64,000 nucleotides of DNA from Heterodontus francisci (Eukaryota). A program made the translations under genes and the position numbers. The stretch covers positions 65,807,326 through 65,871,325 of the forward strand of contig NC_090395.1 of NCBI RefSeq assembly GCF_036365525.1. The letters run 5' to 3'. The stretch's first letter is position 1; every line of letters begins with the position of its first letter. A model generated the notes under the pieces. The model was not told the origin of the DNA. It saw only the letters and a program-made list of their open reading frames with translations, and made no database searches. This document shows positions 2,021-59,910 of the stretch, one piece after another.

Positions 2021-3115
2021 GGTAATGGACCTCCTGGTAATTTTTTAATGGATTTGGGCATGTGAGTATAAAAGTGGTCAAAGACAGGCTCGTAAGCAGA
2101 TAGACTGTCCAATCACCATGCCAATTTTGGCCTATTCTGTTTCTATGCCACAGAAACGGACAGTTCCAGAGAGGCAGATCAGTGATTGGAATATTTAGTG
2201 AGGCTCCATTCCTCAGATTTGGGAGCCATTTGAATTGAATGGCTCTAGGCCAGGTTTCTAGGGCTCAGGAAACCAGGCTGCTGAAGGGAGGCTGATGCTG
2301 ACGGGAGGAATAGTTAAATCTGTTACCAGCACTTGCTTGTGGGCCAGGAGTTGTAGAAGTGCTTCCCACCCATCCCCCCAAGAAAACGTTTCTCCCTCCC
2401 CATAATCGGCCAAATTGTGCCCGCCCCCGGAACCCCACCAGCGATTGGCCAACACCCCATCCCCAGCAATCTCACTCTCTCTCCCTCCCTCCTTACTTCC
2501 ATGCTCTGAGCCTGCACCTTCTCAATCTAGCCCATTGCTGGGTGGGAAATGGAGTAAACGAATTCTAGGTTCTGCCCTTAAATTTGCGTCGACCTCAACC
2601 TCCACAGCATTTCTGTGTTTCCCAACCATACACATGCTCCCTCCCAGCCTCCCTGTAAATTTCAGGACATAAAGATTAATTTTCAGCAGCAGACACTGGA
2701 AACAATCATAATTACACTCCCCATCTAGAGCCACAAAATATGTAACAGATATCTATAAATGTTTTGCTCTCATTTTCTGCCGGATTTCTCCAATTAGTTC
2801 ATGTTCGACAATCAAACAATTAAACAGCATTGGAGGCTAGCCACCTGCTACTTAGAGAATTTTTTAGTCCTGATTTTCATATTGACACATCCTCAGTATC
2901 ATTGCTGTCCTGATCTGCAGCCCTGCTATGTTCTGATACAATGGCAGACATCGTGGTCCAGGCTGCTACGAGGATGGAGAGATATGGAGAGGTAGATGTG
3001 CTGGTGAGATTCCAACATGACAGGTCCTGCCTAAGATACAAAAGTGCTGAAAATTGGAGAGTATTTGATTTTTAGATGCTCAGTCAGTATCTGAATGTTT
3101 GTTTCTTTCCCACAG

Positions 3116-3438
3116 AATCGTATCTGTTCCTGTACTTGGATTTTTATCACCACCAAATGTCACATATTCTGGGGGCTCAGTGTCCGTCTCCTGTGAGTCT
3201 GTCCGGGGATCCCTTCCCATTCGGTACACATGGCATGAAAAGACCCCGTCTGAAGATTCAAAGATCTCTGACACCAATAAACTGGATCTACATTGTCAAT
3301 CCTTCAAACAGCAACATCATCAATATTACTGCACAGCCTCGAATAATCAGGGGAGAAAATCCAGTGAAATTGTTCATGTGTCAGTCTTCAACAGATCGGG
3401 ATTGAATTGCAGTTATGTGACGCAAATCAGCAGCATTG
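3116..3438 (+). pseudogene. Gene A: duplicated C2-type Ig exon with a 1-nt deletion (frameshifted pseudo-exon or assembly error)
   Basis: Acceptor tttcccacag|3116 and donor 3438|gtaagt. Length is 323 nt versus 324 nt for the paralog at 38325 (AATCGTA vs AATCCGTG). Ig frame: SVPVLGFLSPPNVTYSGGSVSVSCESVRGSLPIRYTW...QYYCTASN. Phase-1 entry reads ESYLFLYLDF... to a TGA at 3403-3405. Confidence 0.8.
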
Positions 3439-3544
3439 GTAAGTGTTAGTGTAAGCAAACAATATGCTGAATGAATTAGTTTTAATTAATGTGTATTCAA
3501 ACTAGTTAAGTTCCTTTAGTCACTCCGAGAAACTGCAAAATAAA

Positions 3545-3825
3545 ATTGCATTTCTATAGCACCTTTCACAAGCTCAGGGTGTCCCAAAGTGCTTTACAGC
3601 CAATGAAAAGTGTAGACACTGTACTGTCTGAAACAGCAGCCAGTTTCTGCACAGCAAGCTCCCACAAACAGGAATGTAATAATAACCGGATAATCTGGTT
3701 TTTAGTGATTGCTGGTTGACAGAGAAATATTGGCCAGCAGGCTGGGGAGAACTCCCTTGCTCTTCTGTTAAATAGTGTCATATGAAATTTACAACCACCT
3801 GAGAGGGCAGACAGGATCTTCATTT
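3545..3825 (-). mobile_element. Deu-SINE (SacSINE1/AmnSINE1-like) 3' part
   Basis: Reverse complement matches the central and tail regions of the full-length copy at 63035-63505. Confidence 0.7.
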
Positions 3826-3849
3826 AGAGTCATAGGCTGAAGTTTATGG

Positions 3850-6155
3850 GTCCCCTCTATCTCCCTCAATCTCCTTCGTTGGAGAACAACACTAGCTTCT
3901 CCAAGCTTATGTTGGATCTAAAATCCCTCATCCCTGGAACTATTCTGGAAATCTTCTCTGCCCCTTCTCAAAGACCCTCACATCCTTCCTAAAGTGTGGT
4001 GACCAGAAGTGGACGCAATACTCCAGTTGTGGCATAGTGAGAGCTTTATAAAGGTTCAGCATAGCTTCCCTGCGTTTGTACTGAATATCTCTATTTATGA
4101 AGCCTAAGATCCCATATACCTTGCTGACTACTCTCTCAATATGTCCTGCCACCTTCAAAGATCTAGGCACATGAACCCCCAGGTCCCCCTATTCCTACAC
4201 ACTCTTTAGAACTGTGCCATTAAGTCTATATTGCCTCTCCCTATCCCTTCTGCCAAAATGCAACTCCTCACAATTCTCTGCATTAAATTCCATTTGCCAC
4301 ATGTCTGTCCATGCTGCCAGCCTATGCCCTGTTGCAGTCGACTGGTATCATACTCACTGTCTGCCACACTTCCAAGTTTGTATCATTGGCAAATTTTGAG
4401 ATTTTACTTGGTATGCCAATGAAAAAAGCAGTAGTCATGGCACTGAACCTTGGGAACACCAATGTCTACCATCCCGCAGTCTGAAAATAAACATGTACCA
4501 TGACTCGCTGTTCTCTGTCCTTAAGCCAATTTTTTATCCAAGCTGACACTGACCCTCATATTTCCTGAACCTCAGTTTTGGTAACCAGCTTTTTATGGGG
4601 TACTTTGTCAAATGCTTTCTTAAAATCCATATAGACAGCATCCATTGCATTCCCTTCATCAACCTGCATATTTATTTCATCAAAAATTCAATTAGATTAG
4701 GCAAGCATGATCTTCCTTTTACAAATCCATGTTTGCTCTCCTTAATTAACTCAAACCTCTCCAAGTGCCTGTTGATTTTTTCCCCTCATTATTGTTTTTA
4801 AAAGCTTACTCACCACTGATGTTAAACTCACTAATCTGTAGTCACTAGGACTGTCCTTACACCCTTTCTTGAATAACATTTGTAACTTTCCAATCCTCTG
4901 GCACTTCCCTGGGTATCTCGGGAAAATTGGAAGATTATAGCAAGCCCATCCACTATCTCCCCCGCCTCCAGACCCACTTTCCTTAGCGACCTGGGATGCA
5001 AGGCACCCAGAGCAGGCGACTTATCCACCCGAAGCATAGCTTGCTTTTCAAGGATATGCTGCCTATCAATTTTCACCCCATCCATTACCTCTACCATCTC
5101 CACTTCTACCAATATTTTGTCAGCATCCTCTTCCTTAGTAAACACCAATACCAAGTTCTCATTAAGTATTCTAGCCTTACCCTATGCTTCTAAGCATATA
5201 TCACTCTCTTCATCCCTCATAGGACCCAGCCTGCCTCTTACTACCTTCTTACTATTTATATGCCGGTGGAAGCAATTTGGGTTCCCTTCTATGTTAACAG
5301 CCATTCTATTAACATTGTCACACTTTGCCAGTCTTATATTCCTCTTCACTTCCCCTCTCAACTTATTGTATTTAGCCTGATTTTCGCTTAAAGAATTCAC
5401 CTGAAATGTATCATATACCCTCTTTTTTGTTTCATTACATTCTCTATTTCCCTTTTCATTCAAGGAGCCATGGCTTTGGTTCCCCTACCCTTCACCCTTG
5501 TTAAAATGTACTTAGCCTGGACTTGAAACATCTCCTCCTTAAAGATCATCTATTGTTCCAGTACTGTCAATCTTTGATTCCATTTTATCCTGGCTAGATC
5601 CCATCTCATCCCATTGAAGTTAGCCCTCTTCCAATTTAGAAGTTCTACTTTAGATCGTTCCTTGTTCTTCTCTATCACTGATCAAAACCTTGTGATATGA
5701 TGATCACTCTTACCCAAGTGTTCCCCCACAGACACTTGGTCCACTACCGAGCACCAGAACCAGAAATGCCTCCTTCCTAGTTGGACCGATAACATCCTGG
5801 TCAAGGAAGTTCTCCTGAACACATTTCAGAAATTCCTCCCCCTCCTTAGCCTTGACTCCAACATTATCCCAAATGATATTTGGGCAATTAACGTGCCCCC
5901 AATATCACCACTCTATAGTTCTTGAACACTCCTGTGATTTCCCTGCAGATTTGCTCCTTGATCTCTCTTTCACTATTTGAAGGGCTATAGAATACCCTTA
6001 GTAGTGTGATCATCCCCCTTTTGCTTTTCAACTTTAACCAAACAGCTTCTGTCTTTGCCCCCTCAAGGATATCCTCTCTTTCCAACTCTACAATGTCTTC
6101 CCGAATCAATGTTCCACCCATCTCCCATTTTCCGTTCCCTATCTTTTCTGAACAC
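3850..6155 (-). mobile_element. Degraded CR1 LINE ORF2 (EN to RT)
   Basis: Minus-strand ORF pieces: EAVWLKLKSKRGMITLLRVFYSP (EN), DKSPALGALHPR, and SLKVAGHIERVVSKVYGILGFI...LEYCVHFWSPH (RT C-terminal region); many frameshifts. Confidence 0.85.
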
Positions 6156-6158
6156 TTT

Positions 6159-6465
6159 GGCTGGAATTTTACGTGGCAGCGAAGACCCCACCGTCGGGGG
6201 AGAGCCCGCCTCCGCCAGGCCTGGAAGCCACACAACACTTTTACTTGGCCCAGACCCTGAATTGACCTCAGGTGGGATTTCCGTCCTTCTGAGGCAGGAT
6301 GTCCCACATCCAAGAGCTGCCAGCCAATCAGCACGCCTGCAGCTCTTCAGTCCCAGCTGCGCCGCTGGGAGCGAATTTAAATGCAGGACCTCCACCTTTG
6401 CGGCATTTCTGGGTTTCCCAGTCACACATGCACTTCCTCCCTGCCTTTCTATAAATTTCAAGGCC
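6159..6465. mobile_element. GC-rich Harbinger-type MITE / composite remnant
   Basis: Starts GGCTGGAATTTTAC and ends AAATTTCAAGGCC; contains GAGCTGCCAGCCAATCAG, shared with MITEs at 41814, 54971, 51290 and 62400. Confidence 0.55.
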
Positions 6466-6927
6466 AAAAGGCTTCTTTTCAGCTGAAGTTGCCTGGAACA
6501 AATCACAATTACACTCCCTATTTAAAACTACAATACATGAAACAGATAAGTGCCAATTCTTTGCCCTCATTTCCTGCTGGGATTTTCCAGGACTCTCTCC
6601 AACTCGTTCATGTTCAACAGTCAAACAATTAAACAACATTGGAGACTGGCTACATGCTACTAAGAGATGTTGTTAGCCTTGATTTCCATGTTGACACATC
6701 CTCAGTATCATTGCTACTGTCCTGATCTGCAGCCCTGCTATGTTCTGATACAATGGCAGACATGGTAGTTGAGGCTGCTCGGAGGATGGAGAGATATGGA
6801 GATGTAGATCTGCTGGTGAGATTCCAACATGGCAGGTCCTGGCCGAGATACAGAAGTGCTGACAATTGCAAAGTATTTGATTTTTAGATGTTCAGTCAAT
6901 ATCTGAATGTTTGTTTCTTTCCCACAG

Positions 6928-7245
6928 AATCTGTTCCTGTGCTTGTATTTTTATCACCACCAAATGTCTCCTGTTCTGGGGGTTCAGTGTCCGTCTCCTG
7001 TGAGTCTGTCCAGGGATCCCTTCCCATTCAGTACACATGGTATGAAAAGACCCCGTCTGAAGATTCAAAGATCTCTGACACCAATAAACTGGATCTACAT
7101 TGTCAATCCTTCACACAGAAACATCATCAATATTACTGCACAGCCTCAGATAATCAGGGAGAAAAATCCAGTGAAATGGTTAATGTGTCAGTCTTCAACA
7201 TATCGAGGACGAGCTGCAGTTATGTGACAATAATCAGGGGCATTG
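6928..7245 (+). CDS. Gene A exon: intact C2-type Ig domain (phase 1-1, 318 nt)
   Basis: tttcccacag|AATCTGTT...GGCATTG|gtaagt; encodes ESVPVLVFLSPPNVSCSGGSVSVSCESVQGSLPIQYTWYEK...LDLHC...QYYCTASDNQGEKSSEMVNVSVFN with the B-strand Cys, C-strand Trp and F-strand YYC. Confidence 0.9.
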
Positions 7246-8229
7246 GTAAGTGCTAGTTTAAACAAACAATGTGGTAAATGCACTTTTATAATTAATGTCT
7301 ATCCAAACTGGTCACTGGTTAAATTCGTCACTGAGAAAATGCAACAGGCCAAATTCACTCTATTTGGTTCCCTCAATAGTTAGAACAAGGCTATTTTTCA
7401 TGGAAAATATATCCCCCAAAACATGTGCAAAAATTACAGAAACTCCATTATTCCCATGAAATTAAAATGAAACTTGTTTGACTTTATAAACCGATATGCC
7501 TATTTCGAGCAGGTGGAGTTGTCAAATGCAACATCCAACTATTGTGCCCCAGTTTAGGAAAGATGTCAAGTGATAAGAGTGTGGAGGAGTAGAACTAAAA
7601 TAAAACCTGGGATGAGAGGTTTTAGTTATGAGGAGAGAAACATCAGAACAGAGGTTAAGTGAACTGCTGGATGTATTCAAAATTATTAGGGGCTTTGATG
7701 TGGTAAATTGGAACTAATTATTTCCACCAGCCAGTAGTGAGTCAGCAACTAGGCGGCATAAATTTGAGATCATCACCAAAAGGACAAAGGGGGAAGATAG
7801 GAAAATTTTATTGATGCAAATAGTTGTTAGGACATGGAAAGGCGGGCACGAATAAATGTCAGAAGCAAAATCAATAATAGCTTTGAAATGGGAAGCGAAA
7901 AGAAACACATTTAGCAGGGTATGGGGGAAAGGATAAGGCAATGGGATTAAGTGCGGAGCTCTTTCCAAGAGCCAGCACAAGATCATATTAAACACGCATC
8001 TGCTAATATTGGCAATGGTCATTTTCTGCATTATGGGGTCAGTTTTCTAAGCTTGCAGGAGCGATGGAAACCTCACCCTAGCGGCAGTGGATATTGCAAA
8101 ATCCCGTCAGCGATTTTCCACCCATTTAATTATAATGATCCATGTTGCTGTTGGGAAAGGATCCCTACCTCCAGCGAGCACTCAGATAACGAGCTCAGGT
8201 GTATTTTAATATATAACTAGCTTTAAAAT

Positions 8230-8790
8230 GTAAGAAATGACTTGCATTGACACAGCACCTTTCATGACCTCAGAACACTCCAAAGTGCTTCACAACCAAA
8301 TTTCCTTAATCCTTTGGATAAATCTCAAAAAACTATTTGAGAGAGTTAGTTTGGAGATTTTCCGTACACATGATACCAGGCAAACCAAACAGATGGTCAC
8401 CATGGAGATGAGTAACGAAAGTCTGAATTATATTCACTGTTGCAATGTTGTGGAAACACAGGATTTAATATATGTACAATAAAGTCCCACAAACAGCAAT
8501 AAAATAAACCACCAGATAACCTGCATTTTAGTGATGTTGGTTGAGGGATGAAAGTTTGCTAGGACACTCGGAGAACATTCCTATTCTTCTTTTAATAATA
8601 CCATGGGCACCCCTTTACATCTACATGACAGGACATATGGGTTCTCAGTTTACTATCTCATATAGACAACAACATCAACAACAGTGGACCACTACCTCAG
8701 TGCTGCACAGCCTGAAGTACATGCCTTCTGTGGGTCTTGAAACCACAACCAACTGCTTTCAAGGAAAATGTGCTACAAACTAAACCACCA
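8230..8790 (-). mobile_element. Degraded Deu-SINE
   Basis: Reverse complement resembles the 63035 SINE (tRNA head near 8790, tail near 8235), with an internal insertion. Confidence 0.55.
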
Positions 8791-9591
8791 CTGACACCTA
8801 CTGTAGTTTCTGTAGTTTCCAGGTGAAATTGCTTCCTACTGCTAATATTCTTCACTGACAGATAAAGCAAGTGGCCATATTGACATATGGCCAGAGTCAA
8901 TATTTGCATATGTAAATTTTCATGCACCACTGCTCAGGAGAAAATGCATTTCTCTCTGTTTTCTGACTGTTTTGATGTTTCTCAGTCCAACCAATTGTGA
9001 ACATGTTGCTTCTCACTCAGTGGAAAATTAAACTGCTGTATTAAAATAAGCTAAATTCCTCCTTAATTCAGAACCAATGTCATTGTTTTATGGTGATTGA
9101 GTAATTCAGTTTTTAGTAAATGGAATTCTGAGATTTTGACTGGCAATTTGGAATCATATAATGTTACAGCACAGAAGGAGGATATAATTCAGGATGATAC
9201 CACTGTCCAGCACTGAGATAGTGCTTGGCTGTTGGAGGTGCTGTTGTCTAGATGAGATGTTAAACTAAGGATCCACATGCTCCCTCACATAGATACAGTC
9301 ATAGAGTCATTTACAGTCAAGAAGGAGGCCATTTGGCCCAATGAGTCCATGCCACTTCTCCATGGAACAATCCAGTCAGTCCCACTTCCCTGTTTGACCC
9401 CTGCAGCCCTACAAGTTCATTTCCTTCAAGTGTACATCCAATTTCCTTTTGAAAGTATTGATTGTCACTGCTTCCACCACCCTCGTGGCGGGGAGTTCCC
9501 GGTCACTACCACGGCATAAAAAAGTTCTTCCTCACATTTTTCCTTTATCTCTTGCCCGAAACCTTCAATCTTTGTCCTCTAGTTCTTCTGC

Positions 9592-10752
9592 TATCACTCG
9601 ACATCAAGGCAGTATTTGACCGAGTATGGCATCAAGGAGCCCGAGCAAAACTGAGGTCAATGGGATTCAGCGGGAAAACCCTCCGCTAGCTGGAGTCATA
9701 CCTAGCACAAAGGAAGATGGTTGTGGTTGTTGGAGGTCAATCATCTGAGCTCCAGGACATCACTGCAGGAGTTCCTCAGAGTAGTTTCCTAAGCCCAACC
9801 ATCTTCAGCTGCTTCATCAATGACCTTCCCTCAATCATAAGGTCAGAAGTGGGGATGTTCGCTGATGATTGCACAATGTTCAGCACCATTCGTGACTCCT
9901 CAAATACTGAAGCAGTCCGTGTAGAAATGCAGCAAGACCTGGACAATATCCAGACTTGGGCTGATGAGTGGCAAGTAACATTCGTGCCACACAAGTGCCA
10001 GGCAATGACCATCTCCGACAAGAGAGAATCTAACCATCTCCCCTTGACATTCAATGGCATTACCATCGCTGAATTCCCCACTATCAACATCCTAGGGGCT
10101 ACCATTGACCAGAAACTGAACTGGAGTAGCCATATAAATACCGTGGCTACAAGAACAGGTCAGAGGCTAGGAATCCTGAGGCAAGTAACTCACCTCCTGT
10201 CTCCCCAATGCCTGTCCACCATCTACAAGGCACAAGTCAGGAGTGTGATGGAATACTCTCCACTTGCCTGGATGGATGCAGCTCCAACAACACTCAAGAA
10301 GCTCAACACTATCCAGGACAAAGCAGCCCACTTGATTGGCTCCCAATCTACAAACATTCACTCCCTTCACCACCGATGTACAGTGGCAGCAGTGTGTACC
10401 ATCTACAAGATGCACTGCAGCAATGCACCAAGGCTCCTTAGACAGCACCTTCCAAACCCGCAACCTCTACCAACTAGAAGGACAAGGGCAGCAAATGCAT
10501 GGGAACACCACCACCTGCAAGTTCCCCTCCAAGTCACACATCATCCTGACTTGGAACTATATCGCCGTTCCTTCACTGTCACTGGGTCAAAATCCTGGAA
10601 CTCCCTTCCTAACAGCACTGTGGGTGTACCTACCCCAAATGGACTGCAGCGGTTCAAGAAGGCAGTTCATCACCACCTTCTCAAGGGCAATTAGGGATGG
10701 GCAATAAATGCTGGCCTGGCCAACAACGCCCAAATCCCATGAATGAATAAGA
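9592..10752 (+). mobile_element. 5'-truncated LINE (CR1-group family B), RT plus 3' tail, inserted into a CR1 fragment
   Basis: ORF 9717-10694 (325 aa) has AGVPQ..LSPTIFSCFINDLP and MFADD, preceded by LDIKAVFDRVWH; tail CAATAAATGCTGGCC...CCCATGAATGAATAA is shared with 21480-21550 and 50440-50530. Confidence 0.9.
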
Positions 10753-10754
10753 AA

Positions 10755-11690
10755 AACTTAATGGGAACAGATTTTCCTTGTCTAACTTATCTAAGCTTGT
10801 CATAATCTTGTACATCTCTATCAAAACTCCCCTCAATCTCATTTGCTCCAAGAAGAACATGCCCAGTGTCTCCAACCTAACCTTGTAACCAAAATCCCTC
10901 ATCCCTGGAACTATTCCGGTAAATCTTCTCTGCAGTCTCTCAAGGACCCTCACATCCTTCCTAAAGTGTGGTGACCAGAACTGGATGCAATACTCTAGTT
11001 GGGGCCTAACCAGAGCTTAACTTCCCTATGCCTCTATTTATGAAGCCCAAGATCCCATATGCTTTTCTAACCATTCTCTCAATATGTCCTGCCACCTTCA
11101 AAGATTAATACACGTGCACCCAAAGGTTCTTCAGTTCCTTCACACTCTTTAGTACTGCGCCATTAAGTGTATCTCACCTCACCTTTCCCTTCTGCCAACA
11201 TGCATCACCTTACACTTGTCTGTATTAAATTCTATCTACCACTTGTCTGCCCATTCTGATAGCCTATCTATGTCCTGTTGCATGCAGTCCATATCATCCT
11301 CACTGTTTGCCACTCCTCTGTGTTTTGAATCATTGGCACATTTTGAAATTGTACTCTGTATTCCAAGATCCAAGTCATTTATATATAGCAAAAAAGGAAT
11401 GGTCTTAGAACATTACTGTCTATCATCCTCCAGTCTGAAAAACAACCATTTACCACGAAAACTTGCTATTTTCTGTCGTTAAGCCAATTTTTTTATCCAA
11501 TTGCAATTGATCCTCTTATTCCATGAGCCTCAATTTTGTTAACCAGCCTTTTATGTGGTACTTTATCAAATGCTTTTTTAAAATCCATATAGACAATATC
11601 CACCTCATTCCCTTCATCAACCTTCTCTGTTACTTCATCAAAAAAATTCAATTAGATTAATCAAGCATGATCTGCCTTTTAGAAATCTAA
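10755..11690 (-). mobile_element. CR1 LINE fragment (continues at about 9295-9590)
   Basis: Minus-strand RVLERLQRRFTGIVPGMRDFGYKVRLETLG...RLRGVLIEMYKIM; homologous to 3850-4740. Confidence 0.8.
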
Positions 11691-13052
11691 TGTAAAAGAT
11701 CCCATGGTATTGTTCAAAGAAGAATAGAGAAGTTCTTCTGGTGCCCTAGCAAGCATTCACCCCTCAACCAATGTCACTAAAATACAGATTAACTGACAAT
11801 TTATCTCATTACTGTTGGTGGATGTTTGCTGCATGCAGATTACCTTCTGTGTTTCCCTGCATTATAACAGTGAATATACTTCAGATTGTTATTCTTCATC
11901 TCCATAGTGACGATCTGTTTGGTTTATCTGTTACCTTGTGTACAGAAAACCTCCATAGTAACTCTCTCTTAAACAAACAGCCTGTTTAGATTTATGCACC
12001 CATTGGATTAAGGGAATTCGGCTGTGAGGCACTTTGGAATATCCTGAGGTCATGAAAGGTGTTGGGTCAATAATACTGCAAGATCAGAAAATCAGCCCCA
12101 AGAGCTGGAAATGACCATTGACAATTTTAGCAGTTGACTGTTTAATATGATCATGTGATAGTAATAATATTATGTTAACAGCCAAATGCCGTACAAATTT
12201 TCACTGCTTGTCCAGTATTATTCAACAACAGTGATTATTAACCGAAATTTCCCAAACACTTAATCCTCAGCTGACATTGCTTTTCCACTGCGGATAGCTC
12301 TCCAGGACAAAATCGTGGTTTCCAGGCCCCCAGAAATACAGTTCCAGTGCTGGTAGGGGGCCGCTCTCTGCCTGGAACTTTCTTTATGTTTGTATGGAGG
12401 AAAAAAGTGATATCTGGATTTTAGTTCATCAACCTGAGCCTTTTAACTGCCCCTATAGTAACTTTGTATTACCAACATTCAGATATGTGGATGAAACAGA
12501 ATTAATCAGGAAAAATGGGTCATTGGCAGGTGTCAGCAGAATCTCTCCTTGATACCAGAGAGGGGGAAATTACATAAAACTTAAACCATCCAAATCCATT
12601 ATACTAACCAAAGTTCCATTTGAGAAGAGTGCTGAATTGCTTGACTGCACGGGAGAGAAACAGGTGAATAGAGTCATAGAGTCATACAGCACAGAAACAG
12701 GCCCTTCGGCCCATCATATCCATGCCAGACATCAAGCACCTATCTATTCTAATCCCATTTTCCAGCACTTGGCCCGTAGCCTTGGCGTTTCAAGTGCTCA
12801 TCTAAATACTTCTTAAATGTAGTGAGGGTTCCTGCCTCTACCACCCCTTCAGGCAGTGTGTTCCAGATTCCAACCACCTTTGGGTGAAATTTCTTTTCCT
12901 CAAATCCCCTCTAAACCTTCTGCCCCTTACCTTAAATCTACGCCCCCTGGTTATTGACCCCACCGCGAAGGGAAAAAGTTTCTTCCTATCTAACCTATCT
13001 GTGCCCCTCACAATTTTGTATGAATCTAAATGTTGTCCCCTTGTCTCAATAG

Positions 13053-13125
13053 GACCTGAACATTATTGTGAAGATTTTTCACCAACTTCAACCACATCTT
13101 CAGGATCTCCATCTGTCAGTAAAAG
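13053..13125 (+). CDS. Gene A exon: Ser/Thr/Pro-rich stalk (phase 1-2, 73 nt)
   Basis: ttgtctcaatag|GACCTGAA...AAAAG|gtaaaa; GPEHYCEDFSPTSTTSSGSPSVSK; paralogous to 41176-41296, and its phases fit both neighbouring exons. Confidence 0.85.
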
Positions 13126-13999
13126 GTAAAATATTCTCATTTATGGTGCTTTCATGAGCATTGAATTCAAATGAGAATAAATGATTAAGAGTTTTGGCAT
13201 AAGGATTTATAATCATTTGCTATTTTAGACTATAATTTATCAGAATGGAAATGGTGGCTGGCTTTACGTCATGCTGTTGTGTTAGGTTCCTAACGAAGTT
13301 ATGTTGGTGCAAAGTAAGAATAAGAAGTAAGCATCTCCAGTTTGCCACCCCTCAGATGGTGCTACTTTCATTATTCACCTTGATTGCTTCACTGCTAACC
13401 TAATCTCATGGACTTGTGCTTGCTGCTCTCCAGCGATGTCAGTTTTCCTTAACCTTCTCCCTTCTGAAGTGGCACTGACAGAAAAGTCGCATTCTCTGTC
13501 ATTTTCTTCTTCACAGTTCTCCAGTGGTGTATACATTCTTCCCAAACATAGAGGGAAGGAAGTCTGTCTGCTTCCAGTTCTCAACAATTGCCTGTTAGAA
13601 GGTGCGTAAGAACATTGTGGGATGATGCTATTCTGAGTACCCTCACTGCCTGCGGAGACATCTCATCAATGCTGCATCACACCAGACAGTGCTGCTTCCC
13701 TCAGATGGTCAGTCACTTTTATAAAGTCCCCAATTATAAAATTGAGCCTAACATTACAGCTATGCATTTTGGACATGTTAACGAACTTTGCTTAATTTGA
13801 TCTTTATCTAATTATCACAAAGTTGTCTTTCCTCCATGAGTCAAACACTAGGTTAGTTTCCCAGCTAAAGTCCCTTGGCTCTGCTGCTTCACATTAGTAC
13901 ACTATACTAAGATTACAGTGTAAACAAGAGATAAATGTTTTAAATACAAAGCAGTCTCATTTCTTCTGAATGGTTTTGTATTTCTTCTCTTTTGTTCAG

Positions 14000-14090
14000 T
14001 TACATTATCTGGAATGCGATACGCTGGGTACTCTTTGCTGTCCTGGTGACTTGTACTTTTACAGTAACAAGGTGCATGAGAAAACGCAAG
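14000..14090 (+). CDS. Gene A exon: transmembrane segment with charged Arg (activating type)
   Basis: cttttgttcag|T TAC ATT ATC TGG AAT GCG ATA CGC... reads (S)YIIWNAIRWVLFAVLVTCTFTVTRCMRKRK|gtgggg; phase-2 entry matches the stalk exon; hydrophobic run followed by basic stop-transfer residues. Confidence 0.85.
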
Positions 14091-14281
14091 GTGGGGATTA
14101 TGGACTTTATATGAATCACTGCATCAATACTTTCAAAAATATTGATCACAGATATTGTAAAGAAAAACTTGCATTTACGTAAATCCTTTCATGTCCACGA
14201 ATGAAACAAAGTATTTTACAGCCAATATGAGTTCGTTTTTAAGTGCTACTGATGTCAGCTAGGAAAACCAAATGGAAATGT

Positions 14282-14415
14282 CCTTTCATCAGGTCACAGA
14301 CCTGAAACATTAACTCTGTTTCTCTCTCCACAGATGCTGCCAGACCTGCTGAGTATATCCAGCACTTTCTGTTTTTATTTCAGGTTTCCAGCATCTGCAG
14401 TATTTTCCTTTTATT
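14282..14415. mobile_element. Penelope-like terminal-repeat fragment
   Basis: AGGTCACAGACCTGAAACATTAACTCTG...GATGCTGCCAGACCTGCTGAG; same family as 30715 and 32555 but in the opposite orientation. Confidence 0.6.
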
Positions 14416-14434
14416 TCAGGAAATAAATATTAGT

Positions 14435-14915
14435 CTTGGAAAGGGTGCAGTGTAAATTCACCAGGATGATACCTGGGCTTAAAGGGTTAAATTATAAGGA
14501 CAGATTGTATAAACTGGATTGTATTTCCTTGAGCTTGGAAGATTTGAGTTGTGAGTTGATTGAGCTATTAAAAATTATTAAGAAATTCAATATGGTAGGA
14601 ACAGAGAAACAGTTTGCTCAGTGGGGGAATCTGGTATAAGGGGGGCATAATCTAAAAATGAAAGCTAAGCCATTGAGGAGTGAAATTAGGATGCACTTTT
14701 ACACACAAAGGGTAGTGGAAATCTGGAAAATGCTCATCCTAAGATTGTGGGTGCTGGTTCAAGTGAAGGTTTCATAGCTGATATCACTATAAATTTGTCA
14801 GGTAAGAATAGCAAAGGATATAGATCAATGGCAGGTATACCGAGTTGAACTACAGATCAACCATGATCTAATTGAGTGGTGCAGTCAAATAGGCTACTCC
14901 TCTTGTGATATTCCT
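14435..14915 (+). mobile_element. CR1 LINE 3' fragment
   Basis: LERVQCKFTRMIPGLKGLNYKDRL...; CR1-type 3' end. Confidence 0.75.
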
Positions 14916-15469
14916 TTCTAACTTCTCCATTACAGAACCCTCCTGGCAAGCAGTCCATTGTTGTAAGATAGTTGCTACAAGAAAAGGAAGGGAGGAAATA
15001 GGAAAGGCTAACAGATGCTTTACTGCACAGCAGCAGGGACAATTGTTTTCAGACGAGAACGCAGATGCCTCAAATTTATCCACTCGAGCACCAAGAGGCT
15101 CAGACACTGACCCGATGCTATTGTTGCTGGAAACCACGACTGGATGTTTAAAATGTATTTAATAAAGTAGCCAACTCAATCTTTTCCTGTTATCAAATGC
15201 CCACCATCACAGCGCAGGGAAACATGTGTTTCCTGTGAGTGAATACGTGTTAACCTGTCTTAAAGAGTGACACAACTGGCAGCTTTTCCCAGCACACACG
15301 CAATGGGTGATGGGGGAGGGAGGAGAGTGATCTCAACACAGCTCCAGTCCATCACAAGCTTTTCCTCAATTTGTTGCTAGTTCCAAAATTCTGTTCAGAA
15401 CTGACATGTAAAATAATGCATCGTTCACAATCTCAATGAATCTGATGTCTTAAGTATTTTCTTTTTCAG

Positions 15470-15517
15470 TCACTCGCTGAATCAGATGGTCACAGTTTGA
15501 TCAAGGTGGTAAAATGA
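15470..15517 (+). CDS. Gene A probable terminal exon: short Tyr-free cytoplasmic tail
   Basis: ttttctttttcag|TCA CTC GCT...AAA TGA reads SLAESDGHSLIKVVK* in phase 0, matching the TM exon donor; AATAAA at 15614-15619. Alternative: read-through of the weak donor gives VGIMDFI* ending at 14114. Confidence 0.6.
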   Translation, partial: SLAESDGHSLIKVVK

Positions 15518-17966
15518 AGATTGCCTGGTTACATCTACGTTGATGGAATTTTGAATCCTGATTAAATATTCATTATTCATCCAGCTTTGAACATTTTCTT
15601 TCCAACTATACGAAATAAAATGGATTTTCTCATTAAATTAGTGGAGGAAGAATCAAAAACCAAAACGATGGCTGCGACTTTCAAGTCTCTCTGTCTACAC
15701 CTTGGTAATAATATACATCTGTGTGCCCACTTCCTGTCTACATAACTAGGCTTCTTGTTTTATATTTTTGTCATAATTTTTGTGTCAATTGTTAAGCCTG
15801 AAAATATCACAACTACATGAACAATGTTCTGTAAGAAATAGGCAACTTGAATTATTCATTCGCTGGAAACCAATAATATGTTGCATCTTTCCATGGGATT
15901 GAACTCTAGTGAAGATATTGCAAAAAGTATAACTGCAGTTTCAAGAATGAAGCCTGATCCCCTGTTTGACCACCATCTTACTGGACCCCTCCACTGCCTC
16001 TGTGCTGTCACAGCACTTGGATGAGCCAAAATATCTACCAATTCAACATTGTGAAGACTGAAGCCCCCCCGAATCTCGTGGCGGGGGTGGGCTTTCCGTC
16101 CCCCGCAATGGCGTCAGCTGCCTGTGCGCAGGCACTGCCGCCATTTTTAAAGGGCAGCCAGCCTTGCCGCCCAATTTAAATTTTTTAAGTCCTACCCCCA
16201 AAATTAAATTAATACATTTCTAACACCCCTTTCCCACCCTCTAATAACAATTACAATAAATTATTTCCCCTTCCCCCCACAAAACACTTACCTTTTATAT
16301 CTGACCTTCCCCGCCCCCCCACCCCAAACTGCATAAAGTTTAAGGTTTAACCCTTCCCACCATCCCCTACACCCATTACGTATATTTGACTATGTTCACA
16401 CGCCAAAATTCTTTCAGCAAATTCTGGGCGGTTATGTTTTCAGCAATAGTACACAAAATAAATCCTGTCAGGATGATTCACTATCAAGCACAGCCTGCTC
16501 GGTCACACCTTCCAAGATGTCAACAACCATATCTGCAGACCCCACCTGGCAGCAATTGTCTACAGGTCATCAAAGAGGCAGATGTAGAGCTGTGCCCTCT
16601 GTTGCACGGACACCGAGAGCTAATAAGCAGCATAAATCTGGAAAAGGCAGTGATGATAATGGTCAGCTGTAACCTCCATTCTGAAGATACATGAAGAGTG
16701 GAATTGTCTGAGAGGCCCTGCCACCATCCATTAATGTGAATAAATAGGATATTGTGGGTAACGCAGCCGGCGACATTCGCCATCCCACTGATGGTTTGGG
16801 GCAACTGCCCGTTAAGGACAAGTCCTGGGAAGGCTTTTTACGAGAAGGGCAGAAATCCCAGAGTCAGGCTAATCTACATATTGCGAGCAGATCACTGTAT
16901 CAATCCAGAGCAAATGGGATGTATATCCTACTGGGGGAGGAATTTTGCGGCAGGACCTTGTCCTGCAATTGTTCATCTCAGTGGAATGGATATTTAAAAT
17001 CTGCCGACAGCACGTCTACCAGGATATGGTTTTAAGACAATCCTATGTCACTGTACAATCTCAGACTATTTGGTCAGATATTCCTTCATGTTGTTATTAA
17101 ACTCTGTATTAACTGCTTCAGCTGTGAATCTAAATTGCATACTCAGTACTTTGTGGGAAGGAGAGGACATTGAATCGTCCTGTCAATCTCAACAATTGCA
17201 TGAGGTTTATTTTTAAATTTGTGTTCTAGCTCAGGTGTTTTCAACCAGGGGCCTGCAAAAAGATTTCAAGGCAGTTAAGACTTGCACAACCTAAAGTTGG
17301 TGATTAATATCAGTGATCAGACCCAGAATGTGCTGCCACCCAGTGGCTCCCAAAGAAACTGCGGCTGTAATGATCTCACACAGTTTCAGTCTCCGGTTTA
17401 TTCACTTTAACAGAGTCCCCGAGTGTTCCTCACCCTGAACCACACAGGGGTCCTCGGACAATTCCCCTTCAGTTGGCGACCTATATGATTGAGCCTGATG
17501 AACAAGGAGAAGCAGATTAAACTGACGCTCAGATTCATCCATTTATATTGTCTTGCTTGATGTCGCACTTGATACTTTTGGCCTTGACTACAAGATGACC
17601 GACACAGAGCATTGGGAATTACAGTCAGGGGGTGATGACAATCTCTTCCACACAACTGTTCAATCTCCCGAATATAACGAAAAACAGAACAAGGGCCTGC
17701 AACTCAGTGGCCCCATAGAATCAACAGTAAACACAATATGATGCTCACCATAGCTCCACACAAAGGAAGGGAACATGTTGATGGAGAGTAAAGCAAGAAT
17801 TCAAACTTCTCAGATTGCTCTCGAAACTGTAATGATTAAAGAGACCAAAAGACTCGTTTAGAGCCAGACACTGCAGTACCAGAGCAGAATAGGAGAGGGA
17901 CAACTGAGAGATCAATTATCTCAGTAAATCAGGGTCAAGAAACAAATACAGGGTCCAAAAAATATA

Positions 17967-28682: not shown

Positions 28683-28722
28683 ATGATGTGGATTCCGATT
28701 CTTCTCATTTGTTCCCTGCCCG
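28683..28722 (+). CDS. Gene B exon 1: signal peptide
   Basis: ATG ATG TGG ATT CCG ATT CTT CTC ATT TGT TCC CTG CCC G|gtgagt reads MMWIPILLICSLP(V); a phase-1 donor joins VSGA of exon 2 to complete a leader. Confidence 0.85.
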
Positions 28723-28984: not shown

Positions 28985-29427
28985 AGCTCCACAAGTAACT
29001 TAATCAAAACGCAAAGGCAGCCCGTTTTAATCTGTAACGAGCGATTTTTTTAATGCAGTCTGATGTCCAATATACATTGAAGACTTCTTTTGGGCCTCCT
29101 TATCTCGAGAGACAATGGATACGCGCCTGGAGGTGGTCAGTGGTTTGTGAAGCAGCGCCTGGAGTGGCTATAAAGGCCAATTCTGGAGTGACAGGCTCTT
29201 CCACAGGTGCTGCAGAGAAATTTGTTTGTTGGGGCTGTTGCACAGTTGGCTCTCCCCTTGCGCCTCTGTCTTTTTTCCTGCCAACTACTAAGTCTCTTCG
29301 ACTCGCCACAATTTAGCCCACAATTTAGCTCCACAAGTAACTTAATCAAAACGCAAAGGCAGCCCGTTTTAATCTGTAACGAGCGATTTTTTTAATGCAG
29401 TCTGATGTCCAATATACATTGAAGACT
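28985..29427 (-). mobile_element. RTE 3' fragment (29086-29326) flanked by perfect 101-bp direct repeats
   Basis: 28985-29085 is identical to 29327-29427; the insert encodes the RTE C-terminus, identical in translation to the copy at 47820-48004. Confidence 0.92.
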
Positions 29428-38324: not shown

Positions 38325-38648
38325 AATCCGTGTCTGTTCCTGACCTTAGATTTTTATCACCACCAAATGTCTCATGTTCCGGGGGTTCAGTGTCCGTCTC
38401 CTGCAAGTCTGTCCAGGGATCCCTTCCCATTCAGTACACATGGTATGAAAAGATCCCGTCTGAAGATTCAAAGATCTCTGACTCCAGTAAACTTGATCTA
38501 CATTGTCAATCCTTCACTCAGCAACATCATCAATATTACTGCACAGCCTCGAATAATCAGGGAGAAAAATCCAGTGAAATGGTTAATGTGTCAGACATCA
38601 ACAGATCGGGGGAGAGCTGCAGTTATGTGATACAAATCGACAGCATTG
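38325..38648 (+). CDS. Gene B exon 3: C2-type Ig domain (phase 1-1, 324 nt)
   Basis: tttcccgcag|AATCCGTG...AGCATTG|gtaagt; ESVSVPDLRFLSPPNVSCSGGSVSVSCKSVQGSLPIQYTWYEK...QYYCTASNNQGEKSSE. Confidence 0.93.
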
Positions 38649-39794: not shown

Positions 39795-40250
39795 CAGTGT
39801 CAGCAGTGGCTCATTCTGTAGCATTATGCTCTGATGCGATCAGCTTGTGGATCCAAATCACCCTGCAGAGTTATAAATCAGCCAGAAACCACTGCCCAGT
39901 ATTAAGATTGTGCTATGCTGTTGGCTAGATAACACGTTAAACTGAGCATCCATCTATCACCCACCCCAGTCAGATAGATGGAACAGATCCCACGGCACAG
40001 TCCAAGGAAGAATAGGGAAGTTCTCTTGGTGTCCTGGCAAGCATTTGTCCCTCAACTAATGTTACTAGAAAACAGATTATCTAGTGATTTATCTTGTTTC
40101 TGTTTGTGGGATTTTACTGTGTGCAAATTAGCTTCCATGTTTTCCTACAACACAACCATGGCTACACTTCAAATAACTACTTCATAGTCCGTGAAGCACT
40201 TTGGGATATCCTGAGGTTGTGAAAGGTGCTGCATCAATGCAGATTATTTC
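39795..40250 (+). mobile_element. Degraded Deu-SINE
   Basis: Collinear with 63035-63505; a positionally equivalent copy lies at about 11690-12060 in Gene A. Confidence 0.65.
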
Positions 40251-41175
40251 TTACCCTTTGCAACAAATTATTTATTAAAACGTACCTGAGCTAATTATCT
40301 GAGCACTCACTGGAGGTGGGGTGCCTCGCCCACCAGCAATGCAGATCATTATAAGTAATGGACAGAAAATCACTGGCAGGATATCACAATATCCACTGCT
40401 GGTGGGTGAGGTTTCCAGTCACTACAGCAAACTCAGAAAACTGACCCCAAGAGACAGGAAATGACCAGATTAATATTAGCAGGTGACTGTTTAGTATGAT
40501 CATGTGATGTTCATCCGTCTATTATTTTAACAGAAACATTCTTTCAACAGAGAAATGTCATACAAATATTAACTGCTTGGCCACTAATATCTGCAGCAGT
40601 AATTCCTGGTCTGATATTTCCTGATGACATTCTTTTTCCACATCACTCCAGGGCAGAATCGTGTGCTGGGTCCCCAATAATACATTTTCTGGTGTTGGCA
40701 GGGGCCAGCTCTTTGCCTGGAGCTTTCATTTGCGTTTGCACAGGGCAAAAAAGGGGATATCTGGATTGTGGTCTCACCAACCCGAGCCCTTTAATTGCCC
40801 CAATAGTAACTCTGATAGTAACTGTCAGGTATGGGAAAGAAATAGAAATTATCAGTAAAAACAAGTCATTGCCAGGTGTCAGCAGCCTCTCTCCTTGCGA
40901 TCAGAGAGAGGGGAAATTACACAGAAATAAACCATCCAAATTCATTATATTAACCAGGCTTTTCCTCAAGTAATGAAGTTCCATTTGACAATGTTTCCTG
41001 CATTACAACAGTGACTACACTTCAAAAAGTACTTCATTGTCTGCAAAGTGTTTTGAGACGTCCGATGGTTGGGAAAGGCACTATCTAAATGCAAGTCTTT
41101 CTTTCAATGGTGCTCTCTTGGTTGACTACATGTGAAAATAAGATGAATCTGAATGTTATTCCCTTGTTTCAATAG

Positions 41176-41296
41176 GACTGGAATATTTTTGTGAAGTTTC
41201 TTCAACTGTATCACCAACAACTACACATTCTACAAGCACAAATATAATTTCCACTGATTATCGGAACCAATCATCAAAATTAAAACCTGATAAAAG
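41176..41296 (+). CDS. Gene B exon 4: Ser/Thr-rich stalk (phase 1-2, 121 nt)
   Basis: ttgtttcaatag|GACTGGAA...GATAAAAG|gtacaa; GLEYFCEVSSTVSPTTTHSTSTNIISTDYRNQSSKLKPDK. Confidence 0.88.
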
Positions 41297-41813
41297 GTAC
41301 AATGTTCTCATTGCTTGTGTTTTGATTGGCACACCTTCCATGTGGGGGATTAACAATGTTCTTTAACAATTTTGGCATAAGGAGTGAAAATCATTTATTA
41401 TTTTGCAATGTAGCTCATCAGAATGGAAATGGTGGCTGGGTTTACATTATGCTGTTGTGTTAGCTTCTTAACAAAGGTGCTATTTTGGTTGGTGGCAGAT
41501 AAGAACAAGAAGTGAGCACCTCCACTTTGCCACTCATCAGATGGTTACTATTCACCATGATTATTTCACCCCAATCCTAATCTTGTGGTGGGAGATGGGT
41601 TGTAACTGTCAAACTTACCTTATCAATATTCGAAGGTGAGCAGTGCAGTTCTCCCTGGAGGCTTGGCCAATATTTATCCCTTAACTAACACCACTAAATA
41701 AAGCAGATTATCTTGTCATTATCACTTCTTTATTTCTGGGACCTTGCTGTGTGTAAATTAGCACCCATGTTTCCTACATTACAAAAGTAACTACATTTCA
41801 AAATTGCTTCATT

Positions 41814-42486
41814 GGGCAGATTTTACAATGAGCGGGGGGGTGGGGGTGGGGACCCGTCCACCAACCCATCAGAAAGTCAGTGACGATCCTGCCTCCTCTG
41901 GGCCCGGGGATCCAGACTGGATTTTAGAGTCCCAGACCCATCCTTGAGGCAGGAAGTCCTCCCTAATGGAGCTGCCAGCCAATCAGCGGGGTGTAGTGCC
42001 AACAATGGCCACCACTTGCAGTGGTGCTGCTGGGACTACACCCAACTGCAGGATGATGATGAAGGACGGCCCTGGAAAAAAGGTAAGTTTTTGGGGCCTC
42101 ATCGGGGGCAATCAGTCAGAGCCCCGGTGAGGCAAGTGGGGTCGGTTAGGAGGTGTGGGGGGGCGTGTTGTGGATTGGGGTTGGGTCGGGGCACAGGATG
42201 CCCAATCAGGCCGCCTAGTTTTATCAGGCAGGTTTTGAGACCTCAGCCACTCGCCAGTCAAATATAAAATCCCAATGGCCGCAGGTGGAGGCCCTTAAGT
42301 GGCAGTTAATTGGCCTTGGGGCCATTTCTCACCGCTGCCACCCTGTGTAAATTGGCAGCAAAGGCAGAGGCAGGTCGGGAAGGGCCCCCCAGCCTTCCAC
42401 TCCGTTTTACGCTCCTACCCCCTCTTCCACCCATCCCCCCACCCCTGCCACCAGCCCGTTCTTTTGGGGGGCGTAAAATTCTGGCC
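41814..42486. mobile_element. Harbinger-type MITE inserted in a Deu-SINE tail
   Basis: Terminal inverted repeats GGGCAGATTTTAC / GTAAAATTCTGGCC with a 3-bp ATT duplication; the flanks rejoin as CTTCATTGTCTATAAAGTGCTTTGGG (SINE tail). Confidence 0.8.
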
Positions 42487-42617
42487 ATTGTCTATAAAGT
42501 GCTTTGGGCCATCCTGAGATCGTGAAAGGCACTGTATAAATGTAAAACTTTCTTTAAACAAATAGCCAAGAATTATATTGTGAACCAGCACTGACCCTTT
42601 CCTGTTCTCTGTCACAG

Positions 42618-42706
42618 CCTGCTTTACATTGTGCTTGGTGTGCTGGCGGTCTTTCTTGTTGTGTTCGCTGTTTCTCTACTTTTGTACCTGAGGCAATTCA
42701 AAAAAG
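42618..42706 (+). CDS. Gene B exon 5: uncharged transmembrane segment (phase 2-1, 89 nt)
   Basis: ctctgtcacag|C CTG CTT TAC...AAA AAA G|gtgagt reads (S)LLYIVLGVLAVFLVVFAVSLLLYLRQFKK(G). Confidence 0.92.
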
Positions 42707-47626: not shown

Positions 47627-48081
47627 AGCCGCATGGAAGATGGCAGGATCCCCAAAGACACATTGTACAGCGAGCTCGCCACTGGTATCAGACCCACCGG
47701 CCGTCCATGTCTCCGTTATAAAGACGTCTGCAAACGCGACATGAAATCGTGTGACATTGATCACAAGTCGTGGGAGTCAGTTGCCAGCATTCGCCAGAGC
47801 TGGCGGGCAGCCATAAAGACAGGGCTAAATTGTGGCGAGTCGAAGAGACTTAGTAGTTGGCAGGAAAAAAGACAGAGGCGCAAGGGGAGAGCCAACTGTG
47901 CAACAGCCCCAACAAACAAATTTCTCTGCAGCACCTGTGGAAGAGCCTGTCACTCCAGAATTGGCCTTTATAGCCACTCCAGGCGCTGCTTCACAAACCA
48001 CTGACCACCTCCAGGCGCGTATCCATTGTCTCTCGAGATAAGGAGGCCCAAAAGAAAAAGAAAGAAAAAAGAAAAAAAGAA
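47627..48081 (+). mobile_element. RTE 3' fragment inserted in the Harbinger element
   Basis: ORF 47633-48004 MEDGRIPKDTLYSEL...CSTCGRACHSRIGLYSH; A/G-rich tail. Confidence 0.9.
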
Positions 48082-57218: not shown

Positions 57219-57271
57219 GTACAAACTACATTATACGTCATCGAAAAGGAAAGACTGTAAATGAGAATCAG
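57219..57271 (+). CDS. Gene B exon 6: membrane-proximal cytoplasmic segment (phase 1-0, 53 nt)
   Basis: taatttttcag|GT ACA AAC...AAT CAG|gtaagg reads (G)TNYIIRHRKGKTVNENQ; its phases bridge the TM exon and the ITIM exon exactly. Confidence 0.8.
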
Positions 57272-59595: not shown

Positions 59596-59910
59596 CAATT
59601 GGCAACAGTAGAAGAGAGCGCTGTATATGCAAATATTAACCACATTCCAAGTGGCTCAGCAGAAACACATAGCGAGGGAGCTGCCAAGTTGAATAATGAA
59701 AACGGAATCACATATGCAGCATTGCAGTTTCAAAAGAAATCGTCAGCACGGAGCGGTGAGGTGGCAAAGTGTTCAGTTAACAACGAGGACAGTGTCATCT
59801 ACAGTGGTCTCAACATTCTAAGCCAGTCCCCAAAGAACAATCGAGAAACGCCATCAGTTGATACACCACAGGACACTCAAATGGCAATTTATGCTACCGT
59901 TACTCGTTAG
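59596..59910 (+). CDS. Gene B exon 7: cytoplasmic tail with ITIMs and stop codon
   Basis: tttttattttag|CAA TTG GCA...; AVYANI, ITYAAL, VIYSGL, AIYATV*. The seven exons sum to 1254 nt, one open frame of 417 aa. Confidence 0.92.
   Translation, partial: QLATVEESAVYANINHIPSGSAETHSEGAAKLNNENGITYAALQFQKKSSARSGEVAKCSVNNEDSVIYSGLNILSQSPKNNRETPSVDTPQDTQMAIYATVTR

What the first reader, a model, noticed from the sequence alone, without database searches (positions are those of the whole stretch)
11690..13410. Homology between the two genes stops abruptly in the stalk-TM intron
Seen: 11690-13410 is collinear with about 39980-41590 (SINE remnant, intron blocks, stalk exon, then about 285 nt including CAGAATGGAAATGGTGGCTGG...ATGCTGTTGTGTTAG). 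After that I see no similarity, and the TM exons differ in sequence and exit phase (0 vs 1) but share a phase-2 entry. Inference: an ectodomain cassette was recombined or gene-converted onto a different signalling module, and this is the visible breakpoint of how the pair was made.
Basis: partly seen in the sequence, partly recalled or inferred. Interest (0 to 1): 0.7.

Follow-up and report, generated by a model that had tools for sequence, protein, structure and literature searches.

The report
Old swap boundary in shark immunoreceptors
Two neighbouring shark immune-receptor genes share their outer sensing parts but carry different, likely opposing (on/off) signalling tails; the point where their DNA stops matching is shared by all eight genes of the cluster, so it likely marks an ancient part-swap, a process already known from mammalian paired receptors, rather than the event that made this pair.

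Summary
In detail: window 11690-13410 is collinear with 39978-41590 (71-89% in blocks) and similarity ends in the stalk-TM intron. The genes belong to the skate/shark MDIR family (CD300/pIgR-like V + C2 domains). Gene 1 has an Arg-bearing TM and short tail (likely activating); gene 2 has a neutral TM and ITIM-like motifs (likely inhibitory). The cluster holds four genes of each class, and similarity ends at about this point in all 16 cross-class pairs. Stalk and post-stalk intron sort by class (support 97/93, 100/99), whereas leader, V, C2 and the post-C intron do not. So this is an old class-wide boundary, and later cross-class mixing stops further upstream, near the start of the stalk exon. 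The sharp edge in gene 2 is a secondary ~1.6 kb deletion into a SINE-like repeat; paralog I3 keeps homology to ~13498. Across shark and ray protein models, C2 domains cluster by lineage (24 class changes), while both TM types are old. Some other species share stalks across classes, implying later swaps ending in this intron. This is a new case of known partial homogenisation of paired receptors.

The parts
3116..3438 (+). Gene 1 (A4) first C2-type Ig exon, a duplicate; 323 nt, so it shifts the frame if spliced in
   Evidence: the route V-C1-C2 stops at residue 203; skipping it leaves an open frame to the tail
6928..7245 (+). Gene 1 membrane-proximal C2-type Ig exon (318 nt)
   Evidence: 89-93% identical to this exon in paralogs of both classes
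11690..12071 (+). SINE-like remnant at the same position as gene 2 39978-40238; carries a ~140-nt insert also found in the A2 gene's introns
12074..12610 (+). Unique pre-stalk intron block, homologous to 40423-40956; no class sorting
12668..13019 (.). Repeat insertion in gene 1, absent from the gene 2 alignment
   Evidence: gap between blocks; repeat hits
13053..13125 (+). Gene 1 stalk exon (73 nt, phase 1 to 2); first 30 nt alike in both classes, the rest class-specific
13126..13498 (+). Post-stalk intron block shared by both classes; 13126-13412 aligns with gene 2, 13413-13498 aligns with I3. About 13498 is the class boundary
13499..13999 (+). A-class-only unique intron; matches only A1, A2 and A3 in the genome
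14000..14090 (+). Gene 1 TM exon, Arg-bearing (WNAIRW), entry phase 2, exit phase 0
15470..15517 (+). Gene 1 likely last coding exon (15-residue tail, no tyrosine); 91-98% conserved in A1-A3
   Evidence: splicing is inferred
28683..28722 (+). Gene 2 (I4) leader exon
   Evidence: the 7-exon model equals P0032
31330..31641 (+). Gene 2 V-set exon, CD300/pIgR-like
38325..38648 (+). Gene 2 C2-type Ig exon
39978..40956 (+). Gene 2 counterpart of the SINE-like remnant and the pre-stalk block
41176..41296 (+). Gene 2 stalk exon (121 nt, phase 1 to 2)
41297..41621 (+). Gene 2 post-stalk shared block; ends at a deletion junction (41621/41622) that removed ~1.6 kb still present in I3
41622..42560 (+). 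3' part of a SINE-like repeat found at this position in all four I genes, split by a nested insertion at about 41816-42485
42618..42706 (+). Gene 2 TM exon, no charged residue in the hydrophobic stretch, entry phase 2, exit phase 1
57219..57271 (+). Gene 2 first cytoplasmic exon
59596..59910 (+). Gene 2 last exon with ITIM-like motifs (ITYAAL, VIYSGL)

Best explanation
The end of similarity at ~13498 / 41621 is shared by all four Arg-TM and all four ITIM-tail genes of this MDIR cluster, and it likely marks the far end of one ancient gene-conversion or crossover tract that put a common ectodomain-plus-stalk onto two older signalling modules. Shown: a class-wide boundary; class sorting of the stalk and post-stalk intron; no class sorting of leader, V, C2 and the post-C intron; a deletion that sharpens the edge in gene 2. 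Inferred: after that event both classes duplicated; later cross-class exchanges kept mixing the V and C2 exons but in this genome ended near the start of the stalk exon; exchanges cannot resolve past the block because no homology lies beyond it, so each gene keeps its TM and tail. Predicted function: the Arg-TM form pairs with an ITAM adaptor such as FcR-gamma (recalled analogy), the other form recruits phosphatases through ITIMs, and the mixing keeps their ligand specificities in step.
For: Eight leader exons, 4 A-type and 4 I-type TM exons in C25:65.50-65.87 Mb. All 16 of 16 A-I pairs lose similarity 330-520 nt from the stalk start, while A-A and I-I pairs align up to the TM. Mean identity AA/II/AI: C2 exon 90.7/91.3/91.1; post-C intron 79.1/79.1/79.7; stalk 72.0/81.1/59.5; post-stalk 80.3/78.8/69.0. 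The A|I split ranks 1 of 35 for stalk and post-stalk, and 11-32 of 35 for the six upstream segments. The AU test rejects an A clade for V (p=0.0001), post-C intron (0.007) and leader (0.025); stalk and post-stalk have the clade at 97/93 and 100/99. The divergent A5 gene has a TM exon 72% identical to gene 1's, yet none of its introns align, so the 69% A-I block is likely younger than the TM split. Across species, the C2 tree of 97 rows needs 24 class changes, at least 15 forced by well-supported branches; an A clade is rejected among 45 shark and chimaera rows (p-AU 3e-139). Both TM types occur in 14 of 22 species labels, sharks and rays alike.
Against: The AU test does not reject an A clade for the C2 exon (p=0.19) or the pre-C intron (0.18) within this genome. 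With local alignments the class gap is smaller (A-I 75-78% vs I-I 78-83%) and vanishes in one 150-nt window just before the edge (78.2 vs 77.7), though a tree of that half still splits by class at 100/99. The TM exons share a weak similarity (z=2.6) and a phase-2 entry, so remote common ancestry is not excluded. Class labels were assigned from the TM sequence, so the single class change on the TM tree is partly circular. Conversion, unequal crossover and repeated re-creation of one class cannot be told apart here. The direction of the old event is unknown. No functional or expression data. A5's introns are repeat-rich, which weakens the dating argument.
Confidence: 0.8

Rival explanations
1. 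One reading: a recent swap made this particular pair, and 13410/41590 is its junction.
For: The edge between these two genes is sharp (z 25.6 to -0.1), and the genes are tandem neighbours.
Against: The same boundary holds in 16 of 16 cross-class pairs. Gene 1's post-stalk block is 78-85% identical to A genes but 73% to gene 2. The edge in gene 2 is a deletion junction; I3 aligns ~85 nt further. JC distance in the block is 0.40 between classes and 0.23-0.25 within.
Confidence: 0.03
2. No exchange at this point: one ancestral gene duplicated, the 3' halves of the introns turned over by repeat insertion and deletion, and the TM exons diverged in place.
For: Both TM exons enter in phase 2 and start S-(L)-Y-I; weak DNA similarity (z=2.6); I-class introns are full of repeats.
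Against: Right after the boundary both sides are unique sequence: the A side matches only A paralogs, and the first ~120 nt of the I side match only I2. Arg-type TM exons also sit on A5 and on three distant V-domain genes nearby, whose V domains are about 35-45% identical to gene 2's. Both TM types occur in rays, while the intron block is still 69% alike.
Confidence: 0.12
3. The ancestor carried both TM exons in tandem as alternative ends, and each class lost one of them by deletion.
For: It would explain a shared phase-2 entry and a shared 5' intron without any recombination between genes.
Against: No trace of the A-class intron in four whole I stalk-to-tail regions (best E 0.12). TM searches find no second TM exon inside any of the eight genes. 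The three isoforms of one Heptranchias gene all end in the I-type TM.
Confidence: 0.05

Closest known systems
Modular domain immune-type receptors (MDIR) of clearnose skate (MDIR2 ABC86796.1, MDIR3 ABC86797.1, MDIR5 ABC86800.1)
   Same: V + C2 modules, Ser/Thr stalk, and the same two TM types: MDIR5 has the Arg type, MDIR2 and MDIR3 the neutral type with tyrosine motifs. Gene 2's protein matches them at 46-50% identity, E 1e-106 or better. PMC3031540 (passages seen) calls MDIRs a multigene family of activating/inhibitory receptors related to CD300, TREM and pIgR.
   Different: Different species and lineage-specific ectodomains. The original description (Cannon et al. 2006) was not held, so I could not check whether it reports gene structure or exchange.
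'Merohomogenization' of paired opposing receptors (KLRC/NKG2, KLRI, NKR-P1, Ly49, PIR; PMC3210942, abstract and first part of Discussion seen)
   Same: Opposing signalling modules older than the species split, ligand-binding exons homogenised within lineages, and the membrane-proximal stalk left out, as that paper notes for its families.
   Different: Cartilaginous fish rather than mammals. Here the stalk and ~370 nt of intron were once shared and, judging by protein models, were swapped again in some lineages. Ligands are unknown.
CD300A/CD300C (PMC12447643, abstract and passages seen) and SIGLEC11/SIGLEC16 (PMC5701461, abstract seen)
   Same: Gene conversion keeps the ectodomains of an inhibitory and an activating partner alike; activating members are often lost or broken. 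CD300 is in the same V-domain superfamily.
   Different: CD300 has a single V domain and CD300C uses a TM glutamate; here there are V + C2 repeats, a TM arginine, and an eight-gene cluster rather than a two-gene pair.

Membership tests
MDIR family | CD300/pIgR/TREM-like V domain | tested here: met
   Pfam V-set E 3e-10; best solved relatives are pIgR and CMRF35-like/CD300
MDIR family | Sequence relationship to named skate MDIRs across V, C2 and TM | tested here: met
   MDIR2, 3 and 5 among 120 hits, 46-50% identity; same TM types
MDIR family | Modular, variable number of Ig domains between members | tested here: met
   Cluster genes range from V-C2 to three V-C2 units per leader exon
MDIR family | One-to-one orthology with a named skate MDIR | tested here: not met
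   C2 domains cluster by lineage; skate rows sit in a ray-only clade. The claim is family membership, not orthology
Paired opposing receptors under partial homogenisation | Two signalling types: charged TM with short tail versus ITIM tail | tested here: met
   49 of 55 I rows carry an ITIM-like motif within 170 residues, 2 of 39 A rows within 45 residues (windows differ)
Paired opposing receptors under partial homogenisation | Signalling modules older than the species split | tested here: met
   Both TM types in 14 of 22 species labels across sharks and rays
Paired opposing receptors under partial homogenisation | Ectodomains cluster by lineage, not by signalling type | tested here: met
   24 class changes on the C2 tree; A clade rejected
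Paired opposing receptors under partial homogenisation | Shared ligand and opposite signalling shown by experiment; co-expression | not testable with these tools
   No RNA holder was listed; no assays possible
Paired opposing receptors under partial homogenisation | Conversion tracts mapped on DNA against orthologs of a second species | not testable with these tools
   No related genome is offered for G000; other species were available as protein models only

The most novel reading that the evidence does not exclude
The post-stalk intron block is a recurrently used 'class-switch' zone. Sharks and rays have repeatedly re-joined whole ectodomain-plus-stalk cassettes to the opposite signalling tail here for as long as both groups have existed, and the retained block is what allows it. 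Hints come from protein models: one stalk on both TM types in Heptranchias (score 0.82), in Cetorhinus A vs Carcharodon I (0.82), in stingrays (0.83-0.94) and in Rhinoraja (0.74).
Probability: 0.2. Interest if true: 0.6.

Novelty: new member of a known kind. Interest (0 to 1): 0.33.

Why it matters
It extends partial homogenisation of paired receptors, described in mammals, to cartilaginous fishes, and gives a nucleotide-level map with two boundaries: a younger one near the start of the stalk exon and an older one in the stalk-TM intron. Slowly changing shark introns (recalled) keep such traces readable, so the cluster could test whether activating receptors are continually re-made from inhibitory ones or both tails persist while ectodomains are exchanged; the data here favour persistence. 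I found no paper on this in the held library, but the original MDIR paper and most subscription papers are not held. The principle itself is not new.

Tried and rejected
SINE-mediated junction: rejected. The SINE-like repeat shared by the I genes lies ~1.4 kb past the deepest homology point in I3, and the sequence on both sides of that point is unique. Structured RNA in 39800-42700: two Rfam matches at E 0.045 and 0.077, far below their gathering scores, treated as chance. Expression: no RNA holder listed; laying three coded runs on 2900-16200 gave mostly repeat contigs and no informative splice joint, so it is no evidence either way. Earlier scan findings near this place: none. The pre-stalk segment is unresolved: the first alignment was disturbed by repeats; the corrected one (I3 left out, as it lacks the region) gives A|I support of only 73/87 and rank 11 of 35. 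A2 was left out of the pre-C tree because its sequence does not align there. No stalk exon for A5 was found by two pattern scans. A search for papers on TM-arginine/FcR-gamma pairing in fish receptors gave nothing relevant, so that link is recalled. Cannon et al. 2006 could not be read. Weak Pfam matches to unrelated families (E 0.04-0.07) were ignored. No fold or complex prediction was run, as neither bears on the boundary. Supplements of the papers cited were not opened; they may hold tract maps.

Full report
1. Observation. Self-alignment of the window and a focused alignment confirm collinear blocks from 11690 to about 13410 against 39978-41590, at 71-89% identity. The post-stalk block scores z=25.6 against shuffles and the next 88 nt score z=-0.1. 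The shared region is much longer than the finding: it includes the C2 exons and their flanks.

2. What the genes are. Gene 2's seven exons splice to a protein identical to P0032, which its source labels a Heterodontus francisci protein. It has a V-set domain closest to pIgR and CD300 among solved structures, a C2-like domain, a Ser/Thr stalk, an uncharged TM and ITIM-like motifs. Skate MDIR2, 3 and 5 are among its 120 hits at 46-50% identity. Gene 1's leader and V exon lie just upstream of the window. Its TM carries an arginine and its likely tail has no tyrosine. That such a TM pairs with an ITAM adaptor is recalled from NKp46/LILRA-type receptors, not tested.

3. The cluster. Searches of G000 and 720 kb of fetched sequence give eight leader exons, four A-type and four I-type TM exons, plus a divergent A-type gene (A5) and more distant V-domain genes, three of them followed by an Arg-type TM. 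I name the genes I1, A1, A2, I2, A3, I3, A4 (gene 1) and I4 (gene 2). A3 and I3 have frameshifted C2 exons; I2 has a stop in its tail exon and an interrupted V exon.

4. The boundary is class-wide. In all 16 of 16 A-I pairs, similarity ends 330-520 nt after the stalk start; later hits are short or reverse-strand repeats. A-A and I-I pairs align on to the TM exon. The A-side intron beyond the boundary matches only A paralogs genome-wide and nothing in four whole I regions (best E 0.12). The first ~120 nt of the I side match only I2. All four I genes carry a SINE-like repeat just before the TM acceptor; 'SINE-like' rests on copy number and shape, and I did not determine the family. In gene 2 the shared block is fused at 41621/41622 to the middle of that repeat, ~1.6 kb being lost relative to I3. 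I3 aligns with gene 1 to ~13498 (z=5.7, then 0.9).

5. Two boundaries. Mean identities AA/II/AI are 81.8/84.8/84.1 for V, 90.7/91.3/91.1 for C2, 79.1/79.1/79.7 for the post-C intron, 72.0/81.1/59.5 for the stalk and 80.3/78.8/69.0 for the post-stalk intron. The A|I split ranks 1 of 35 in the last two segments and 11-32 of 35 in the six upstream ones. Trees give the class split at 97/93 and 100/99 for stalk and post-stalk; an A clade is rejected for V, post-C intron and leader, but not for C2 (p=0.19) or pre-C (p=0.18). The first 30 nt of the stalk exon show little class signal (AI 79.4, AA 81.7, II 86.7), and both halves of the post-stalk block split by class at 100/99. A sliding profile shows gene 2 drifting towards I paralogs from about 40880, with one window before the edge showing no gap. 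Cross-class mixing therefore fades near the stalk start. The post-stalk block separated earlier: JC distance 0.40 versus 0.23-0.25.

6. Why an exchange rather than divergence in place. A5's TM exon is 72% identical to gene 1's, yet none of five cluster intron queries aligns to A5's 18-kb region (best E 0.05). The two TM types are far more different than that (z=2.6). A 69%-identical intron block between the classes is thus likely younger than their TM modules. This step is an inference, weakened by the repeat load of A5's introns.

7. Other species. Of 137 proteins, 103 gave 112 TM calls, and 94 calls had an adjacent C2 domain. I dropped the 18 calls without one, two partial proteins (P0135, P0136) and P0032 (replaced by I4), relabelled P0110 as A by eye, and added the six intact genome C2 exons (A3 and I3 left out as frameshifted). 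The resulting 97-row C2 tree groups by lineage and needs 24 class changes (shuffled mean 31.8; at least 15 forced; few columns, 32 of 90 branches well supported). Among 45 shark and chimaera rows an A clade is rejected. A 92-row TM tree needs one change, partly by construction. Both classes occur in 14 of 22 species labels. For 39 of 46 shark and chimaera stalks, the best match in another order is of the same class, so class-specific stalks are older than the split of these orders; 7 are not. Some near-identical stalks sit on opposite TM types: Heptranchias P0057 vs P0016/P0024, Cetorhinus P0003 vs Carcharodon P0015, stingray P0076/P0100 vs P0090/P0010, and Rhinoraja P0080 vs P0093. These are gene models, P0003 is a fused one, and I could not see their DNA.

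8. Mechanism. Shown: points 1, 3, 4, 5 and the tree incongruence in 7. Inferred: one old tract ending at ~13498; duplication of both classes afterwards; continued ectodomain exchange ending near the stalk start; no exchange past the block for lack of homology; selection keeping the opposing tails. Untested: ligands, adaptor, expression and the direction of transfer.

9. Relation to what is known. This matches 'merohomogenization' (PMC3210942; abstract and first part of the Discussion read), including its remark that stalk exons escape homogenisation. It also parallels CD300A/CD300C (PMC12447643; abstract and passages) and SIGLEC11/16 (PMC5701461; abstract). Xenopus and mammalian CEACAM papers (PMC5112662, PMC2832619) were seen in a search listing only. 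MDIRs are described in passages of PMC3031540; the original paper was not seen. Five searches found no paper on exchange in shark MDIRs.

10. Verdict. A real feature and a new example of a known process. Interest 0.33.

Noticed in passing
window 3116-3438: Gene 1's first C2 exon is 323 nt (one base short near its 5' end). The gene has an open frame only if this exon is skipped; otherwise it stops at residue 203.
   Followed up: partly
window 7973-9185: Inverted copy of intron sequence (matches gene 2 40509-39420 on the reverse strand, 71-77%), which also forms an old inverted repeat with 11701-12157 in gene 1.
   Followed up: partly
G000:C25:65.50-65.87 Mb: Five genes lie on the minus strand and three on the plus strand, with the switch between A3 and I3, then A5 on the minus strand again. 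At least A3, I2 and I3 carry stops or frameshifts, so gene death accompanies the exchange.
   Followed up: partly
G000:C25:65874830-65884500 (A5): A V-C2-Arg-TM gene at the cluster edge has escaped homogenisation (V 53%, C2 51% identical to gene 2); a natural control for what sets the exchange boundary.
   Followed up: partly
G000:C25:65549388 and 65722020 (A1, A3 TM exons): A1, A3 and A5 stop within the TM exon, whereas A2 and A4 read on into the next exon, although that exon is 91-98% conserved in A1-A3. A3 has Cys in place of the TM Arg.
   Followed up: no
window 28985-29427: A LINE-tail insertion (100% identical to 47822-48056) is flanked by a perfect 101-nt direct repeat, an unusually long target-site duplication, in gene 2's first intron.
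   Followed up: no
G000:C25:65.24-65.43 Mb: Further CD300/pIgR-like V exons (35-45% identical to gene 2's V), three followed by Arg-type TM sequences that sit inside longer exons.
   Followed up: partly
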